Of a DNA stretch of 64,000 nt, positions 6,064 through 30,724 are shown in pieces (positions within the stretch are counted from its first letter, which is position 1; every line of letters begins with the position of its first letter). The stretch comes from an uncultured Clostridia bacterium (lineage in GTDB: Bacteria > Bacillota > Clostridia > TANB77 > CAG-508). Made by a program: the position numbers and the translations under genes. The DNA is taken from assembly GCA_944387495.1 (NCBI GenBank), contig CALXFD010000004.1, positions 6,798 through 70,797 of the forward strand, in the 5' to 3' direction. Below the pieces are notes generated by a model. That model saw nothing but the letters and a program-made list of their open reading frames with translations. It was not told the DNA's origin and searched no databases.

Positions 6064-6108
6064 TTGACAAAAATACAGAATTGTTTTAAAATGTTAGCGT
6101 AAACTAAC
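6064..6108 (+). promoter_or_regulatory. sigma-A-type promoter with adjacent palindromic operator upstream of the DtxR-family gene
   Basis: TTGACA (6064-6069), 17-nt spacer, TAAAAT (6087-6092), then inverted repeat GTTAG-cgtaaa-CTAAC (6093-6108) before GAGGAGG RBS. Confidence 0.5.
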
Positions 6109-6123
6109 AAGAGGAGGAAAGTT

Positions 6124-6585
6124 ATGAAATTAACTAATTCGCAAGAAGAATATTTAAAAACAATATATTTGTTAGAAAAAAATAATAATAAAGTACGTGT
6201 TACAGATATTGCACAAAAGTTAAAAATAACTAAACCAAGTGTAAATAGAGCAATAAAAACATTAAGGGACATGGGACTTATTGAATATGAAGTATATGGA
6301 GATATTGCTTTTACTTATGAAGGCAAAGAAATTGCAAAAGATATTATTAAAAAATATGATATTATAAAAATGTTTTTAACAGATATCTTAGAAATTGAAG
6401 AAAGACAAGCTGAGGAAGAAGCCAAGTCAATGAAATATGCAATATCGGAAAACACTGCTAAAAAATTAGAGGATTATATTAGCAAAATAATGAATTTAGG
6501 AGATTTAGATTGTGACTATGATGAAAATAATCCAAAATGTAGAGACTGTGTAAAGATTACTGCAAAAAATAGATTAAAAAAATAG
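6124..6585 (+). CDS. DtxR/MntR-family metal-dependent transcriptional repressor
   Basis: N-terminal winged helix SQEEYLKTIYLLEKNNNKVRVTDIAQKLKITKPSVNRAIKTL typical of the family; Cys-rich tail CDYDENNPKCRDC. Confidence 0.8.
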   Translation: MKLTNSQEEYLKTIYLLEKNNNKVRVTDIAQKLKITKPSVNRAIKTLRDMGLIEYEVYGDIAFTYEGKEIAKDIIKKYDIIKMFLTDILEIEERQAEEEAKSMKYAISENTAKKLEDYISKIMNLGDLDCDYDENNPKCRDCVKITAKNRLKK

Positions 6586-6620
6586 GTTTATAGGTAAAAC
6601 CTTTATTAAAAAACCTAAAT
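6584..6620 (+). promoter_or_regulatory. leader motif copy A: small hairpin plus A-rich tail with pseudoknot potential
   Basis: AGGTTT(6584-6589)/AAACCT(6597-6602) stem, loop ATAGGTA; loop TAGGT can pair with ACCTA(6613-6617) after an A-tract; near-identical copy at 10997-11030. Confidence 0.4.
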
Positions 6621-6677
6621 ATATTAAGCAAGGAGTATATGATTATTTAAGAAATTAAATATATCATAAAAAAGATT

Positions 6678-7388
6678 ATGATTTTAGAATTAAAAGATAT
6701 ATATTTTGAAAGAGATAATAAAAAAATATTAAACAACATAAATTTAAACATAGAACTAGGAAAATTTATAGCAATTACAGGACCAAATGGTTCAGGAAAA
6801 TCAACATTAGCAAAAATAATAATGGGAATAGAAAAACCAGATAAAGGACAAATAATATTTGACGGAAAAGACATTACAAATATGTCTATAAACGAAAGAG
6901 CAAATTTAGGAATAAGCTTTGGTTTTCAACAACCAGTTAAATTTAAAGGAATAACAGTATATGATTTGCTAAAAATAGCTGCTAAAAAGAAAATTACAAA
7001 AAAAGAAGCATGTGAAGCATTATCAAAAGTAGGCTTATGTGCAAAAGAATATGTAGATAGAGAAGTTAATGGTTCGCTATCAGGAGGAGAGCTAAAAAGA
7101 ATAGAAATAGCAACAGTAGCATTAAGACAAACAAAATTAACAATATTTGATGAACCAGAAGCAGGAATAGATTTATGGAGTTTTAATAATTTAATAGAGA
7201 TTTTCGAAGATATGGGAGAATTAATAAAAGGAACAACATTAATAATATCACATCAAGAAAAAATCTTAAAAATAGCAGATGAAATAATCTTAATGAAATC
7301 AGGAAAAATTCAAAAAAGAGGAACAAGCAAAGAAATATTAGAAGATGAAATAGAAGACAAAAAATGCTGTAAATTAATTAAAGAATAG
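6678..7388 (+). CDS. sufC: SufC-like ABC ATPase (Fe-S cluster assembly)
   Basis: Walker A GPNGSGKST, signature LSGGELKR, Walker B TIFDEPEAGID, H-loop IISHQEK; no TM partner; followed by SufB/D-family gene. Confidence 0.8.
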   Translation: MILELKDIYFERDNKKILNNINLNIELGKFIAITGPNGSGKSTLAKIIMGIEKPDKGQIIFDGKDITNMSINERANLGISFGFQQPVKFKGITVYDLLKIAAKKKITKKEACEALSKVGLCAKEYVDREVNGSLSGGELKRIEIATVALRQTKLTIFDEPEAGIDLWSFNNLIEIFEDMGELIKGTTLIISHQEKILKIADEIILMKSGKIQKRGTSKEILEDEIEDKKCCKLIKE

Positions 7389-7420
7389 ACATTATAGTAA
7401 TTGAAATAAATCATAAGCAA

Positions 7421-7535
7421 AAAAAGACAACAGATGAAATAATTTTAAGGAAATCATGTAAAATCTAAAAAGAGGAACAAGCCAGTAATATCAGAAAATG
7501 AAGTAAAGGCAAAAAAATATGCTACTATTAGATAA
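7421..7535 (+). repeat. degenerate tandem duplicate of the sufC-like 3' end (7269-7388)
   Basis: ~80% identity by eye, e.g. aaaaagaggaacaagc shared; second copy carries stops. Confidence 0.6.
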
Positions 7536-7651
7536 TTAAAATAAAAGCAAAACATATTATAAATAAACATAAAAATAAATTATTAGTAAATAAAAATTAC
7601 AGAAATTTAATTACAAAAATATATGAATATATTTTTGGGAAAGGAATATTA

Positions 7652-10766: not shown

Positions 10767-10842
<76 letters not shown>

Positions 10843-10960: not shown

Positions 10961-10990
10961 TTGTAGAAAACAGCAAATTTGCTATATAAT
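10961..10990 (+). promoter_or_regulatory. sigma-A-type promoter for the methyltransferase transcript
   Basis: TTGTAG (10961-10966), 18-nt spacer, TATAAT (10985-10990); predicted transcription start falls at the start of leader motif copy B. Confidence 0.45.
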
Positions 10991-10996
10991 ATAAAA

Positions 10997-11030
10997 AGGT
11001 TTATAGGTAAAACCATTAAAAACCTAAATA
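10997..11030 (+). promoter_or_regulatory. leader motif copy B (same hairpin/A-tail element as 6584-6620)
   Basis: AGGTTTATAGGTAAAACC identical to copy A; same pairing options; homology continues to the start codon. Confidence 0.4.
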
Positions 11031-11074
11031 GGACACGAAGGAGATAAGATATATAAAAATATATCAAAAATAAA

Positions 11075-13177
11075 ATGCAAGTAAAAAATAGAGGACAAGT
11101 AATCACACCAAAAAATATAATCAAAGATATATTAGAATTATCAGACTATAAAGGCGAAAAAATACTAAAAAAACACGTAATGGAAAATAGTTGTGCAAAC
11201 GGAGCCTTTTTAGTAGAAATAGTAAAAAGATATATAAATGCATACAAGAGAAAAAACAAAACATTAAAAGGAATAGAAGAAGAATTAAGCACATATATAC
11301 ATGGAATAGAAATAGATAAAGAACTACACAAAGAATGTATAAAAGAACTAAATAATTTAGCGAAAGAGCAAAAAATAGGAGAAGTAAACTGGGATATCAT
11401 AAATGGAAATTCATTAAAAATAGATAAATATAACAATGAAATGGATTATGTCATAGGAAACCCACCATATGTAAGAACACATAATTTAGAAGACCAATAT
11501 CAAAATGTAAAAAACTCAATTTTTTGTACAAATGGAATGATAGACTTATACATAATATTTTTTGAAGTAGGGCTAAAAATGCTAAAAAACTCAGGAACAT
11601 TATGTTATATAACACCAAATTCATTTTATACAAGTGTAGCAGGAACAGAACTAAGAAACTATATAAAAACAGAGCAATGCCTAGAAACAATAATGGATCT
11701 AGGGCATTATCAACCATTTAAAGAAACCACATATACAACAATCACCAAAATACAAAAAGGAATAAAATTTAAGCACTGCAAATACTACAAATATAGCCAA
11801 GAAAGCGAAAGACCAATATATAAAAACATAATAAATTACAGTAAATTATTCATAGACGGCAGAATATATTTAGAAACAAATAAAAAGGGAAGTGCAGAAG
11901 TTTTGCAATATAACTCAAAAAGTCTAAAAACAAGAGTAAAAAATGGTTTTGCAACATTATCAGACAAAATCTTTATACAAAATGATTTTCCATTTGTAGA
12001 AAATACAATAGATGTAATAAAATCGTCAACAGGAAAATGGGCAAAATGTATATATCCATATGACGAAAATGGAAAAATAATACCATTTGAAAACCTCAAC
12101 CAAGATGTACAAGAATATCTAATGAATAATAAAGAAAAGCTAGAAAAAAGAAGTATAGACGAGAATACACCATGGTATGCATTTGGAAGAACACAAGCAA
12201 TAAATGACGTACAAAAACAAAAAATAAGTATAAACACAACAATAAAAGATATAGAATCAATAAAACTAAACCTAATAGAACCAGGACAAGGAGTATATAG
12301 TGGATTATACATATTAACAGACAAGCCATATGAATATATAGAAAAAATAATAAAAACAAAAAGATTTATAAAATATATAGAAGGGCTAAATAAATGTAAA
12401 AATGCTGGATACTATACATTTTCATCAAAAGATTTAGAAAAATATATAAATTATCACACGGAGGTGATGAATATGGACAATAACAAGTTTCTGAACATCA
12501 TAAGAGAATCATTTGAAAAATACTTAGAAACAAGTTCAAGAAGCAATGAAAAATTAAAAATACTACATGGAGAAATAGCAAAAGACTTAGCAGATAGATT
12601 AGGAGATGGATACAAAGTAAATTCATTAAACACAAAGGGGGGAAAAGAAAAAAATATTCAAGGAGAATATATGGTAAAAAAAGTAGACATTACAATATCA
12701 AAAAAAGAAAAAGACATAGCAGGAATAGCTCTAAAATTCATAATGAGCAACTACTGGCAAAATTCCAACAACTATTTTGAAAACATGCTAGGAGAAACAG
12801 CAAACATAAGAAGAGCAGGAAAACCATATTATCAAATCTTAGTACTACCAAGCAAACTACCATATTTTAACAAAAGTGGGGAAATAAAAAAATATGAAGA
12901 AATAAATCAGGACAGATTAGAAAAATATATAAAATTATCTAAGGAAGATATAAAACAAAATTTATACTGTCCAAATAAAATGCTAATTTACATAGTAGAT
13001 ATACCAATCCCAGGAGAAGATTGCAAGCAAAGAAAAGATTATATAGAGTTTTACCAAAATTTAGATGAATTTCATATTACGAAAAATAATGAAGAGTATG
13101 AATTTGGGGATATGGTGGTTTATAATGATTATGAGAGATTTATAAGTGAGATATGTGATGAAGTGGAAAATAATTAG
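11075..13177 (+). CDS. fused gamma-class N6-adenine DNA methyltransferase plus C-terminal putative restriction endonuclease domain
   Basis: Motif I ENSCANGAFL, motif IV GNPPYV, TaqI/Eco57I-like layout; residues ~465-700 form a separate domain preceded in frame by GGAGGTG-ATG (12460-12469). Confidence 0.7.
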   Translation: MQVKNRGQVITPKNIIKDILELSDYKGEKILKKHVMENSCANGAFLVEIVKRYINAYKRKNKTLKGIEEELSTYIHGIEIDKELHKECIKELNNLAKEQKIGEVNWDIINGNSLKIDKYNNEMDYVIGNPPYVRTHNLEDQYQNVKNSIFCTNGMIDLYIIFFEVGLKMLKNSGTLCYITPNSFYTSVAGTELRNYIKTEQCLETIMDLGHYQPFKETTYTTITKIQKGIKFKHCKYYKYSQESERPIYKNIINYSKLFIDGRIYLETNKKGSAEVLQYNSKSLKTRVKNGFATLSDKIFIQNDFPFVENTIDVIKSSTGKWAKCIYPYDENGKIIPFENLNQDVQEYLMNNKEKLEKRSIDENTPWYAFGRTQAINDVQKQKISINTTIKDIESIKLNLIEPGQGVYSGLYILTDKPYEYIEKIIKTKRFIKYIEGLNKCKNAGYYTFSSKDLEKYINYHTEVMNMDNNKFLNIIRESFEKYLETSSRSNEKLKILHGEIAKDLADRLGDGYKVNSLNTKGGKEKNIQGEYMVKKVDITISKKEKDIAGIALKFIMSNYWQNSNNYFENMLGETANIRRAGKPYYQILVLPSKLPYFNKSGEIKKYEEINQDRLEKYIKLSKEDIKQNLYCPNKMLIYIVDIPIPGEDCKQRKDYIEFYQNLDEFHITKNNEEYEFGDMVVYNDYERFISEICDEVENN

Positions 13178-29333: not shown

Positions 29334-30724
29334 TTATATTATTGAAAACAAAGTATTGAGCTTTTTTGTGATTTTTAATTGTTCGTTATGAGGCGGAATT
29401 GCTATTAATGTTTTAGCTATGTCTTTCATAACCCAATTTTTATTTCCAACCCCTTTTGTATTTTCTTTACATTGTTTTTGAACCAGTGGCGATAAGATTA
29501 AATTTTTTAAATATTCCCTATCTATATATTCATTATTGAATTTTAATAAAGCTAGACTAACAAATAAGCTAAATTCTATGTCGGTTTCTACTATAACAGG
29601 TATTCCTGTTGTTCCGACTTTACTTAAAATAATGTCTCCTTTCTGAGGATTACATCTTTGAAATAATATTTTGTGTTCTTCTTTTGTAATGTGCTTTGTA
29701 TTGTCTAATTTTAATGTTCCAGAACTTATATCTTTAACAGAAATAAAAGGAACACCATTTTCTACATATTTAGGAGTTTTATGCGTTCCATCAGTTAATT
29801 TTGTTAAAATATTTACTATTCTAGTCCAAGCCCAATTATCTGGAATTTCAAAAGGTATTTCTTCTGTAATATTTTTAATAGTACCATCATCAAACTTCTC
29901 ATAAAATTGATTATCTGTATTATTTTTATAAATTACAGATAAATTTTCTTTTTTAATTTGTTTAGATTTAATTAATTCACGTTTTTCGCTTAGAATTTTA
30001 TTAATTAAAATATCTGCTGGTTCATCATTTTGATCTTGTTGTACTAATTTCCCTTGTATTGCATATTGCAATATTGATTTCTTTAAATCTTCTTTATAAT
30101 TATTATTTATTTTTTCTAATCGCTCATATATATCATCATATCTGCTTATATATGGCAATAAATTTTCATATTTTTCTATAATACGTTGTTGTTCTTTTAG
30201 TGGTGGTATAGGAATTAAGAATTTTTTTAACCACCCAGTATTTAAATTTTTCTGAGCAGCTCCTTTTACATTTCTATTTATTTGTTCCTGAAAAAGTAAA
30301 GATTCCATCCATAATACAATATAGTGTTTATTCATTATATCTAAATGGTCTCTGAAAAATCCTAAACTCACAAAAATACAAAATTCTTCATCTGTTTCAA
30401 TTATTTGAGGTTTACCCATAGTTCCAACTCTACCAAACAATATGTCACCTTTATGTGGTTTACTACCATAAGAAGCTTTGTCATATGTTTCTCGACTTAC
30501 CTTTTTAGCTTTTGAAAAATCAATTTTTCCACCAGAAATATCTTTTACAGATAAGAAATATACTCCTTCGCTTGTATAATCTGGTTTATATGTAAAACCT
30601 AAATTTATTTCTTCAAAATTTTCAATTCTACACCATTTCCAAGTATCAGGAATATCAAAAGGAATTTCTTCTGTGATATCATTTATAGTACCATCTTCAA
30701 ACTTCTCATAATAATGATTATCTG
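29334..30724 (-). CDS. hsdS: silent, 5'-truncated alternative hsdS cassette (two different TRDs, no start or promoter of its own)
   Basis: Frame stays open upstream of the listed ORF through 30724, where homology to active hsdS residue ~62 begins; TRDs differ from the active copy. Confidence 0.8.
29820..30070 (-). repeat. hsdS inversion repeat IR2 (minus copy)
   Basis: Inverted copy of 27717-27967; the encoded 90 aa are identical in both ORFs. Confidence 0.85.
30633..30724 (-). repeat. hsdS inversion repeat IR1 (minus copy)
   Basis: Perfect inverted copy of 27063-27154. Confidence 0.85.

What the first reader, a model, noticed from the sequence alone, without database searches (positions are those of the whole stretch)
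6584..6680. Conserved ~95-nt leader with hairpin/A-tract pseudoknot potential upstream of the SufC/SufBD-like operon, duplicated elsewhere in the window
AGGTTTATAGGTAAAACC..AAAAACCTAAATA occurs at 6584-6620 and again at 10997-11030. Similarity continues through an AAGGAG box and AAATATATCA to the start codons of two unrelated genes. The fold options are P1 AGGTTT/AAACCT, with the loop TAGGT able to pair with the downstream ACCTA after an A-tract. This is an H-type pseudoknot reminiscent of preQ1-I or SAM-II-type riboswitches. The two AGGT and two AACCT elements also allow mutually exclusive pairings. In both loci the strong SD-like AAGGAG sits 30-40 nt from the real ATG. In copy A it instead serves a 3-codon mini-ORF (ATG ATT ATT TAA). 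The element starts immediately after the DtxR-family gene, so a protein operator is the alternative explanation.
Basis: seen in the sequence. Interest (0 to 1): 0.7.

Follow-up and report, generated by a model that had tools for sequence, protein, structure and literature searches.

The report
Widespread pseudoknot leader before ribosome-binding sites
The two look-alike leaders are copies of a previously uncatalogued, about 35-nt RNA pseudoknot that sits a fixed distance upstream of the ribosome-binding site of many unrelated genes in low-GC gut Clostridia (with relatives on Bacillus cereus-group plasmids), so it is a general gene "front end" rather than a switch for the Suf operon.

Summary
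AGGTTTATAGGTAAAACC…AAAACCTAAAT occurs at 6584-6620 and 10997-11029, and these are the only two copies in the window.

It is not a local duplication. Every copy is co-oriented with, and about 13 nt upstream of, an AAGGA Shine-Dalgarno. The 142 downstream proteins span 176 Pfam families.

With G11 forced to be non-G, all 42 real metagenome hits have A11 together with a C-to-U change at the predicted tail partner. The nested alternative is broken in those sequences. Single-locus compensations, G·U wobbles, and a G1-C19 swap in homologous Bacillus plasmid leaders add support.

Membership of preQ1-I or SAM-II, and a DtxR operator, are not supported. Rfam 15 and sequence searches of the literature find nothing.

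The function is inferred, not shown. I favour a portable RNA module at the 5' edge of the ribosome footprint that insulates and protects the RBS. A site for a trans-acting regulator is the main rival.

Both window copies belong to a minority class with a hairpin inserted between the SD and the AUG.

The parts
6584..6620 (+). Pseudoknot leader, copy A (A1 = 6584; ends with the invariant AAAT)
   Evidence: Exact motif; nhmmer E 6e-10; identical in 9 strain-level contigs except for linker length
6584..6589 (+). Copy A, P1 5' arm AGGUUU (core pairs are G6585-C6601, G6586-C6600, U6587-A6599)
   Evidence: Pair counts; compensated P1 variants L056b and L038b; G1-C19 in Bacillus
6591..6595 (+). Copy A, P2 5' strand UAGGU, in the P1 loop
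   Evidence: Pairs with 6613-6617; G11 to tail-C covariation
6597..6602 (+). Copy A, P1 3' arm AAACCU
6603..6612 (+). Copy A, L3: a variable linker followed by the invariant A-run
   Evidence: Linker length is 2-13 nt and its sequence is free across the family; the A-run is fixed
6613..6617 (+). Copy A, P2 3' strand ACCUA
6630..6635 (+). AAGGAG Shine-Dalgarno belonging to the module, at fixed spacing from the pseudoknot
   Evidence: GG at +15/+16 after AAAACCTA in about 83 of 123 members; AAGGA in 86% of pseudoknot genes against 31% of other ORFs
6638..6668 (+). Inserted hairpin between the SD and the real AUG; it contains the 3-codon mini-ORF at 6639-6650
   Evidence: MFE fold, z = -3.6. Absent from the pseudoknot-bearing SufC-like leaders L013 and L175
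6678..7388 (+). SufC-like ABC ATPase gene served by copy A
   Evidence: Pfam ABC_tran; the N-terminus is conserved in homologues
10997..11029 (+). Pseudoknot leader, copy B (P1 10998-11000 with 11012-11014; P2 11004-11008 with 11022-11026)
   Evidence: Exact motif; nhmmer E 3.7e-10
11038..11043 (+). AAGGAG of copy B
11048..11065 (+). Hairpin GAUAUAU-AAAA-AUAUAUC between the SD and the AUG of copy B
   Evidence: z = -4.6
11075..13177 (+). Eco57I-type methyltransferase gene served by copy B
   Evidence: Pfam Eco57I; same context in 6 other contigs
10961..10990 (+). Promoter-like TTGTAG-18-TATAAT, which would start the copy B transcript a few nt before the pseudoknot
   Evidence: Read from the sequence. 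Inference only: the family shows no fixed -10 position

Best explanation
Shown: the element is an RNA structure on the mRNA strand. It is a compact H-type pseudoknot.
- P1: a GGU/ACC core, extendable to AGGUUU/AAACCU.
- L1: UUA.
- P2: UAGGU in the P1 loop pairs with ACCUA in the tail.
- L2: 3 variable nt.
- L3: a variable linker followed by an invariant A-run.

After the pseudoknot come an AU-rich spacer of about 10 nt and an AAGGA Shine-Dalgarno at fixed distance. The whole 55-60-nt unit is a module found in front of many unrelated genes, either at 5' UTRs or directly after the stop codon of the preceding gene.

Inferred (my commitment): the module acts constitutively in cis as a portable front end of the ribosome-binding site. 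The pseudoknot sits at about -27 to -62 from the AUG, which is the 5' edge of the 30S footprint. With an A-rich L3 and a U-rich L1, it is of the type that resists unwinding from the 5' side. I propose that it does three things:
1. It keeps the spacer and SD single-stranded whatever lies upstream.
2. It stops 5'-to-3' decay (RNase J type) and upstream ribosomes from running into the RBS.
3. It thereby gives the downstream cistron context-independent stability and initiation.

At 6584 it makes the SufC-like gene an independent translation unit behind the DtxR-family gene. At 10997 it heads the methylase mRNA.

Both window copies carry an extra hairpin that loops out 18-31 nt between the SD and the AUG. 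This is a split-RBS arrangement that probably tunes initiation down or makes it depend on structure.
For: RNA pairing:
- A metagenome scan forced G11 to be non-G and left C17 and the tail C free. It gave 43 hits. All 42 real ones have A11 with U at the tail partner, and C17 is unchanged in 41. They come from about 18 distinct loci.
- P2 is 100% paired, with pair 11-23 as GC 18, AU 14 and GU 1. The nested model breaks in 14 of 33 sequences.
- A second P2 pair is swapped G-C to A-U in L079b.
- P1 is compensated in L056b (U-A) and L038b (one G and one C both deleted).
- A1-U19 becomes G1-C19 in the Bacillus homologues.
- G·U wobbles in L145b, L187, L147b and L175 fit only the sense strand.

The module is tied to the RBS:
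- All 123 canonical copies are co-oriented with, and followed by, an SD and a start codon. The start codon lies 19-29 nt after AAAT in most.
- The SD GG is at a fixed offset.
- The SD register is AAGGA in 86% of pseudoknot genes against 31% of other ORFs. GGAGG is 0% against 21%.
- The AAGGAG keeps its place next to the pseudoknot even in the 17 long-spacer members.

The role looks generic, not pathway-specific:
- The 142 downstream proteins match 176 Pfam families, none with more than 5 members.
- Downstream genes include mobile ones: an RM methylase, a serine-recombinase-like ORF (my reading of its N-terminal sequence), and a phage portal and holin in Bacillus.
- 29 of 78 copies lie within 30 nt of a same-strand upstream stop, and 11 within 3 nt.
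- The pseudoknot sits at different junctions of the comEA-dtxR-sufC-sufB cluster in different lineages.
- It is gained, lost or decayed among SufC-like homologues of 80-84% identity.
- It is conserved across the classes Clostridia and Bacilli.

Precedent: folded pseudoknot RNAs can block bacterial RNase J1. I take this from the search listing for PMC5760640, which shows 13 mentions of RNase J1. I did not read the paper.
Against: - Nothing here measures stability or translation.
- Simple protection does not explain why nearly every nucleotide is invariant, helices included. Only 3 near-variants were found in 965 kb.
- It does not explain why one P2 pair switched G-C to A-U in all copies of one lineage, including genes whose homologues in the other lineage carry the canonical form, at equal GC content. 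That pattern suits a sequence-reading partner.
- Only a few per cent of genes carry the element (2 in 64 kb here).
- No sharp -10 peak places it at transcript 5' ends.
- The family census is biased, because the search patterns were anchored on the window sequence.
Confidence: 0.4

Rival explanations
1. The pseudoknot is an operator for a trans-acting, sequence-specific RNA-binding factor: a dedicated protein, or a ribosomal component on the 30S platform. The bound factor would hinder or help 30S binding at the adjacent SD. The carrier genes would then form a post-transcriptional regulon.
For: - Loops and helices are near-invariant.
- A lineage-wide concerted G-C to A-U switch occurs in P2, including at homologous genes, with no GC difference.
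- There is regulon-like turnover among SufC-like homologues.
- The spacing to the SD is fixed.
- The element is conserved at the same homologous genes (der x4, gpsA x3, spoVAC, spoVAD, spoIIAB) across species.
Against: - The target genes have no common function and include mobile genes.
- The factor would have to be shared by Clostridia and Bacillus plasmids.
- No RNA-binding protein gene was found among 10 small downstream ORFs, so there is no obvious autoregulated candidate.
Confidence: 0.28
2. The element is a small-molecule riboswitch of the preQ1-I / SAM-II architectural type. It would sense a global signal such as an alarmone, an ion or a polyamine and tune many genes.
For: - It has the same topology and size as preQ1-I: P1 hairpin, loop-tail P2, A-rich L3, and a tail AAAAACCUA against AAAAAACUA in preQ1-I (the preQ1-I sequence is from my memory).
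- It has the strong nucleotide conservation typical of a ligand pocket.
Against: - No Rfam hit at E<=10.
- L2, which reads the ligand in preQ1-I, is variable.
- Neither the SD nor a terminator is part of any alternative pairing that I could find, so there is no expression platform.
- The gene set is not a pathway.
Confidence: 0.1
3. The element is a DNA-level site: an operator of the adjacent DtxR-family repressor or of another DNA-binding protein.
For: - The motif contains TAGGT…ACCTA inverted repeats that resemble DtxR/IdeR half-sites (the consensus is from my memory).
- Copy A abuts the DtxR-family gene.
- A lineage-wide symmetric change of both half-sites is what protein co-evolution would give.
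Against: - The half-site spacing varies by 11 nt.
- Only the second and fourth of the four AGGT/ACCT units changed, following pseudoknot pairing.
- Single-locus compensations and G·U wobbles are not expected for a DNA site.
- The motif is strictly co-oriented with the gene and fixed in distance to the SD, not to promoters.
- The downstream genes are not metal-related.
- A better operator candidate, the palindrome TGTTAG-N6-CTAACA, overlaps the DtxR-family gene's own promoter at 6092-6109.
Confidence: 0.03
4. The element is a selfish or passive repeat, REP- or MITE-like, or part of an IS110 element or its landing pad, with no role in expression.
For: - It is multi-copy and intergenic.
- An about 80-nt identical subfamily sits at MAG contig ends in L048, L080, L081 and L126.
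- IS110-family elements lie 38-47 nt upstream of it in Bacillus plasmids and in one MAG. IS110 elements are known to target repeated intergenic sequences (abstract of 10.1101/2025.01.17.633520, listed).
Against: - Every copy is co-oriented with a gene and at fixed distance from its SD.
- Linkers differ between copies while the core is invariant, which indicates selection rather than recent copying.
- It is kept at homologous genes across species and conserved across classes.
- Only 1 of about 160 Clostridial loci has the IS.
- Between pHT73 and ATCC 10792 the aligned IS end shows no differences, while the hairpin-pseudoknot flank differs by roughly 15%.
Confidence: 0.07

Closest known systems
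preQ1-I riboswitch (Rfam RF00522)
   Same: It is an H-type pseudoknot of about 34 nt. It has a short P1 hairpin whose loop pairs with a 3' tail after an A-rich L3. The tail sequence is similar, and it lies just upstream of an SD.
   Different: - There is no covariance-model match.
- L2 is variable and lacks the ligand-reading C.
- The SD lies 13-14 nt outside P2.
- There are no queuosine genes downstream.
- Several copies occur per genome assembly: up to 3 among the rows shown, and 2 in this 64-kb window.
SAM-II / SAM-V riboswitches and other triple-helix pseudoknots
   Same: A classic H-type fold with a U-rich L1 and an A-rich L3.
   Different: There is no model match, no methionine or SAM gene context, and no SD sequestration.
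Phage T4 gene 32 mRNA leader pseudoknot (from my own knowledge)
   Same: A 5' H-type pseudoknot is followed by an unstructured AU-rich stretch that runs into the RBS. In T4 the pseudoknot nucleates binding of a protein that covers the RBS.
   Different: The T4 element serves one autoregulated gene. Here, dozens of unrelated genes carry the element, and no binding protein is known.
Firmicute 5' mRNA stabilisers (aprE leader stem-loop, cry3A STAB-SD) and viral exoribonuclease-resistant RNAs (the Firmicute examples are from my own knowledge; the xrRNA and RNase J1 link rests on the search listing for PMC5760640, which I did not read)
   Same: A structured element plus an SD near the 5' end could block 5'-to-3' decay. 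Here the AAGGAG is kept next to the pseudoknot even when it is not the proximal SD.
   Different: Known bacterial stabilisers are idiosyncratic hairpins. They are not a conserved multi-copy pseudoknot family. Resistance to exonuclease is untested here.
REP / BOX / Correia-type repeated intergenic elements
   Same: A short repeated intergenic sequence with inverted repeats. It is used as a landmark by IS110-family elements.
   Different: The motif is always sense-oriented and at fixed distance from a start codon. It is conserved across classes rather than specific to a species, and its internal linker is variable.
Split Shine-Dalgarno hairpins of phage T4 genes 38 and 25 (from my own knowledge). 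This comparison applies only to the long-spacer class.
   Same: The SD lies 30-40 nt from the AUG with a looped-out hairpin in between. There are 1-5 nt before the hairpin and 8-11 nt after it in 14 of 17 members.
   Different: The effective spacing after looping is 10-15 nt, compared with 7-10 nt in normal family members. It is therefore not clearly optimal.

Membership tests
preQ1-I riboswitch | Match to the Rfam covariance model at or above the gathering score | tested here: not met
   No hit even at E<=10 on either copy
preQ1-I riboswitch | H-type pseudoknot: hairpin loop pairs with the 3' tail after an A-rich loop | tested here: met
   P2 covariation, 100% paired
preQ1-I riboswitch | Conserved cytidine in L2 that base-pairs with the ligand | tested here: not met
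   L2 (positions 13-15) is AAA in 91 of 123 and otherwise ATA, AGA, TAA, GCC and others. No conserved C
preQ1-I riboswitch | Association with queuosine synthesis or transport genes | tested here: not met
   176 Pfam families downstream; no que families among the 25 most frequent listed
preQ1-I riboswitch | Binds preQ1 | not testable with these tools
   Needs in-line probing or ITC
SAM-II / SAM-V riboswitch | Covariance-model match and methionine or SAM gene context | tested here: not met
DtxR/IdeR-type DNA operator | Palindrome with fixed half-site spacing at promoters of metal-homeostasis genes | tested here: not met
   Spacing varies 2-13 nt. There is no fixed promoter relation. The genes are unrelated to metals. 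DtxR-family homologues were found within the fetched DNA at only a handful of locus types, which appear to be the same gene cluster.
DtxR/IdeR-type DNA operator | Bound by the repressor | not testable with these tools
   Needs EMSA
REP/MITE-type mobile repeat | Copies in both orientations, without a fixed relation to start codons | tested here: not met
   All 123 are co-oriented, with the SD at a fixed offset
REP/MITE-type mobile repeat | Copies near-identical throughout, reflecting recent copying | tested here: not met
   The core is invariant but the linker and L2 differ between copies, including homologous ones
Terminal part of an IS110-family element | Travels with the IS and diverges together with it | tested here: not met
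   IS homology stops at CACTCTATCTA, 38-47 nt upstream. Between pHT73 and ATCC 10792 the aligned IS end shows no differences while the flank differs by roughly 15%. Only 1 of about 160 Clostridial loci has the IS. Empty sites exist at L187 and L073.
Exoribonuclease-resistant RNA (xrRNA-like) | Stalls a 5'-to-3' exonuclease at its 5' border | not testable with these tools
   Needs RNase J1 assays or 5'-end mapping
Split-SD hairpin (T4 gene 38/25 type), long-spacer class only | SD far from the AUG, with an intervening stable hairpin of free sequence | tested here: met
   17 members; hairpins of 7-13 bp; z from -2 to -9 in 16 of 17; flanks of 1-5 nt and 8-11 nt in 14 of 17
Split-SD hairpin (T4 gene 38/25 type), long-spacer class only | Looping restores optimal SD-AUG spacing | tested here: inconclusive
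   The effective spacing is 10-15 nt, against 7-10 nt in normal members

The most novel reading that the evidence does not exclude
The pseudoknot would be the first cellular, genome-wide bacterial class of 'mechanical' leader RNA. In this reading it is a 35-nt triple-helix pseudoknot that stalls RNase J-type 5'-to-3' decay, or docks the 30S platform. It would define the stable 5' end and translation competence of individual cistrons across Firmicute operons, as a 5' counterpart of REP elements, and it would be conserved from gut Clostridia to Bacillus plasmids. Alternatively, it could be a global riboswitch or protein operator that links dozens of housekeeping and sporulation genes to one signal.
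Probability: 0.25. Interest if true: 0.9.

Novelty: new variant of a known kind. Interest (0 to 1): 0.72.

Why it matters
If the structure-function link holds, this is an uncatalogued RNA family that is absent from Rfam 15 and was not found in the literature. Three features are unusual:
- It has many copies per genome.
- It is physically coupled to the ribosome-binding site of unrelated genes.
- It is conserved across two classes of Firmicutes.

It would bear on how low-GC Gram-positive bacteria set expression of single cistrons inside operons. It would also offer a compact, portable RBS insulator or stabiliser for engineering. The copies on B. thuringiensis plasmids (for example pHT73 at 56.8 kb) make it testable in a culturable host, although most carriers are uncultured.

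For the window itself, the finding removes the idea of a Suf-specific riboswitch or a DtxR operator at 6584.

Tried and rejected
- **Nested fold** (AGGUUU with the tail; GGU-triloop-ACC). This is the RNAfold MFE for both copies. I rejected it because pair 11-17 breaks in 14 of 33 sequences while pseudoknot P2 covaries.
- **Promoter reading** (block 1 as -35, TAAAT/TATATT as -10). The block spacing is variable and there is no positional -10 peak upstream.
- **preQ1-I, SAM-II or any Rfam family.** No hits.
- **DtxR operator.** See the rival explanations.
- **CsrA site.** The SD context UAUACAAGGAA resembles the CsrA SELEX consensus (from my memory). However, the loop has GGU, which becomes GAU in the variant lineage, so there is no second GGA site.
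- **Anti-SD sequestration by the CCU elements.** Only 3 bp are possible, judged by inspection.
- **AT mutational pressure as the cause of the lineage-wide G-C to A-U switch.** GC content is equal: 27.8% against 28.1%.
- **Pseudoknot as part of the IS110 element.** Rejected.
- **Phage origin.** No real hits in IMG/VR or in GenBank phages.
- **Literature search** with the sequence strings found nothing relevant.
- **Autoregulated RNA-binding protein** among small downstream ORFs. None found.
- **16S complementarity.** Could not be tested, because no rRNA is present in any fetched locus.
Full report
**1. Observation**

The 18-mer AGGTTTATAGGTAAAACC is present exactly at 6584-6601 and 10997-11014. 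With up to 3 mismatches there are 3 matches in the window against 0.13 expected, and no shuffle reaches 3. The tail AAAAACCTAAATA follows at 6609-6621 and 11018-11030.

Both copies continue with AAGGAG and a shared AAATATATCA before the start codons at 6678 and 11075.
- a DtxR-family gene at 6124-6585, whose TAG stop overlaps the first two bases of copy A;
- a SufC-like ABC ATPase at 6678-7388;
- a SufBD gene;
- an Eco57I-type methylase at 11075-13177.

A profile of the family finds no further copy in the window.

**2. It is a large family, not a local duplication**

I scanned one genome per species with AGGTNNNTAGGTNNNACCN{2,14}AAAACCTA. Every title shown is an uncultured low-GC Clostridia, Clostridium or Bacillota gut MAG (human, chicken, rabbit, ruminant; for example Clostridium sp. 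CAG:440). By my count of accession prefixes, at least about 66 assemblies appear among the 80 rows shown. Several assemblies have 2-3 hits.

Across the 123 copies:
- The three free positions 5-7 are TTA in 122.
- The three bases after AAAACCTA are AAT in all 123, although the pattern did not require it.
- Positions 13-15 vary.
- The linker is 2-13 nt of free sequence.
- Nothing upstream is conserved except an A at -2.
- Every copy is co-oriented with, and followed by, an SD (GG at +15/+16) and a start codon, mostly 19-29 nt after AAAT.

The 142 distinct downstream proteins match 176 Pfam families, none in more than 5 members. Some homologous genes carry the motif in several species, namely der x4, gpsA x3, spoVAC, spoVAD, spoIIAB and DUF881.

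In 29 of 78 cases the motif lies within 30 nt of a same-strand upstream stop, and in 11 within 3 nt, as in copy A. No sharp -10 peak precedes it.

Fuzzy searching of 965 kb around the hits found 124 exact copies and only 3 near-variants.

**3. Structure**

RNAfold prefers a nested fold. To discriminate, I spent the single metagenome scan on a pattern that forces G11 to be non-G and leaves both candidate partners free: C17 (nested model) and the tail C (pseudoknot model).

The scan returned 43 hits. One is spurious. The other 42 all have A11 with AAAAUCUAAAU, and C17 is unchanged in 41. They come from about 18 distinct loci.

On a 33-row alignment of distinct cores:
- In the pseudoknot model, P2 is 100% paired. 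Pair 11-23 is GC 18, AU 14 and GU 1, and 0 of 500 shuffles reach the observed covariation score.
- In the nested model, pair 11-17 breaks in 14 rows.

Copies that the patterns did not constrain add further support:
- G10-C to A-U in L079b.
- P1 G2-C18 to U-A in L056b.
- A paired deletion of one G and one C in L038b.
- U·G wobbles in L147b and L175.

P1 pairs 5-15 and 6-14 are often unpaired. The P1 core is therefore 3 bp, with UUA acting as L1. G·U pairs place the fold on the sense strand.

Caveat: the patterns fixed many positions, so most pairs could not vary by design. The A-U version is also lineage-wide. Every copy on those contigs has the U tail, and three homologous gene sets span both versions. 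The number of independent events is therefore small. GC content does not differ between the lineages. I cannot explain this concerted switch.

**4. Relatives in Bacillus**

BLASTN against plasmids found 57 Bacillus cereus-group records with 77-86% identity over the whole 52-nt module. The sequence is GGGUUUAUAGGUAAAUCCC-UUUCCU-AAAAAACCUAAC-UUUAUCAUAC-GAGGAGGUG. It lies 6-9 nt before the starts of a phage portal gene, a holin gene, a Kunitz inhibitor gene and hypothetical genes.

A1-U19 is replaced there by G1-C19. Rfam finds nothing in these loci either, and GenBank phages have no match.

**5. The IS110 link**

Five of the six Bacillus loci I examined have an IS110-family (ISBth13-like) element 236-238 nt upstream on the other strand. 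The homology of its left end stops at CACTCTATCTA, 38-47 nt before the pseudoknot.

One MAG locus, L086, has the same arrangement, with a transposase 60% identical to the Bacillus one. Empty sites that carry the 11-mer exist at L187 and at L073, where it has one mismatch.

Between pHT73 and ATCC 10792 the aligned IS end shows no differences, while the flank containing the pseudoknot differs by roughly 15%. The pseudoknot is therefore target-side DNA and not part of the IS. IS110 elements are known to land in repeated intergenic sequences (abstracts listed).

**6. What it is not**

- No Rfam family matches at E<=10, including preQ1-I and SAM-II.
- L2 has no conserved C.
- The SD lies outside P2.
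- There is no terminator and no convincing anti-SD pairing, so I see no riboswitch expression platform.
- A DtxR operator is contradicted by the variable spacing, by pseudoknot-type rather than symmetric changes, by single-locus compensations, and by the gene set. DtxR-family homologues occur near the motif only where the comEA-dtxR-sufC-sufB cluster is involved, and the pseudoknot sits at different junctions of that cluster in different lineages.
- The palindrome TGTTAG-N6-CTAACA at 6092-6109, overlapping the DtxR-family gene's own -10, is a better operator candidate.
- Among SufC-like homologues of 80-84% identity, the pseudoknot is present in L175 (and also in the SufC-like leader L013 from the genome scan), decayed in L178, and absent in L174, L176 and L177, which have GGAGG SDs.

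**7. How it most likely works**

Shown: an RNA pseudoknot that is coupled in position and SD type to the RBS. AAGGA occurs in 86% of pseudoknot genes against 31% of other ORFs, and GGAGG in 0% against 21%.

Inferred: a portable cis module at the 5' edge of the 30S footprint that insulates and protects the RBS. It would block 5'-to-3' decay and upstream ribosomes, and keep the spacer and SD open. Supporting this:
- the generic gene set;
- the inclusion of mobile genes;
- the frequent intercistronic placement;
- the cross-class conservation;
- the known ability of folded pseudoknot RNAs to stop RNase J1 (search listing for PMC5760640; I did not read the paper).

I give this about 0.4. The near-total sequence invariance and the lineage-wide pair switch fit better with a sequence-reading partner, either a protein or the ribosome. 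That rival gets about 0.28. A global riboswitch gets about 0.1. A DNA site or a selfish repeat are each below 0.1.

**8. The window copies are atypical**

Seventeen family members, including both window copies, have the start codon 44-58 nt after AAAT. Their layout is AAGGAG, then 1-5 nt, then a hairpin of 7-13 bp with unrelated sequence (z from -2 to -9 in 16 of 17), then 8-11 nt, then the AUG. No SD lies next to the AUG.

Other pseudoknot-bearing SufC-like leaders (L013, L175) lack the hairpin, so it is an insertion of about 30 nt in this lineage. Many of these hairpins start with an AUG only 3 nt after the SD.

This resembles the split-SD hairpins of phage T4. However, the looped-out spacing of 10-15 nt is longer than the 7-10 nt of normal members, so its effect is uncertain.

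**9. Novelty**

The element is not in Rfam 15, and searches of the literature with its sequence strings found nothing. The fold is of a known kind. The distribution and the coupling to the RBS are not.

Noticed in passing
L185:2266-2500, L188, L189, L190, L186 (Bacillus plasmids); L086:2122-3541 (MAG); empty sites L187:1454-1464 and L073: An IS110-family (ISBth13-like) element sits with its non-coding left end abutting the 11-mer CACTCTATCTA, 38-47 nt upstream of the pseudoknot, in both Bacillus and a Clostridial MAG. The left end contains TAGATAGTG, which is complementary to the 11-mer apart from one base, so it may be a bridge-RNA guide.
   Followed up: partly
window 6636-6677 and 11044-11074; 15 further loci (e.g. 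L017, L025, L039, L081, L095, L101, L113, L124, L155): A long-spacer class has the layout SD, 1-5 nt, a hairpin of free sequence, 8-11 nt, AUG. About half of the hairpins begin with UAUGAU and end with AUCAUA, with an AUG only 3 nt after the SD.
   Followed up: partly
loci L131-L173 compared with L011-L130: There is a lineage-wide switch of one P2 pair (G11-C to A-U) in every copy on the variant contigs. It includes SpoVAD and Ddl genes, whose homologues carry the canonical pair elsewhere. GC content is equal. No explanation so far accounts for the concerted change.
   Followed up: partly
window 6092-6109: The perfect palindrome TGTTAG-CGTAAA-CTAACA overlaps the -10 (TAAAAT, 6087-6092) of the promoter-like site in front of the DtxR-family gene. 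It is a plausible autoregulatory operator.
   Followed up: no
window 7389-7651: A 264-nt AT-rich stretch without an ORF separates the SufC-like and SufBD genes. Relatives have 14-36 nt here (L175-L177), and strain L002 has 419 nt.
   Followed up: no
L048:1-25, L080, L081, L126 (contig ends): Four MAG contigs end 24-25 nt upstream of the pseudoknot within a shared sequence (…AAAAATATAACAATGGTGGCAAT). This suggests an about 80-nt leader subfamily repeated so exactly that it breaks assemblies.
   Followed up: partly
L185:2470-2500, L188:1468-1500 and other Bacillus loci: The Bacillus leaders carry an extra hairpin between the 11-mer and the pseudoknot, with compensatory differences: AGTATCT…AGATACT against GTATT…AAATAC.
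   Followed up: no
window 10770-10842 (- strand): A tRNA gene (63.9 bits) lies about 155 nt upstream of copy B. Three strain contigs (L182-L184) begin about 280-310 nt upstream of the methylase start, which is about where the tRNA gene lies in the window.
   Followed up: no
window 30582-30607: There is a partial look-alike, TGGTTTATATGTAAAACCTAAATT (2 mismatches in the 18-mer, nhmmer E 0.17). It has no SD or start codon after it and is probably chance.
   Followed up: partly
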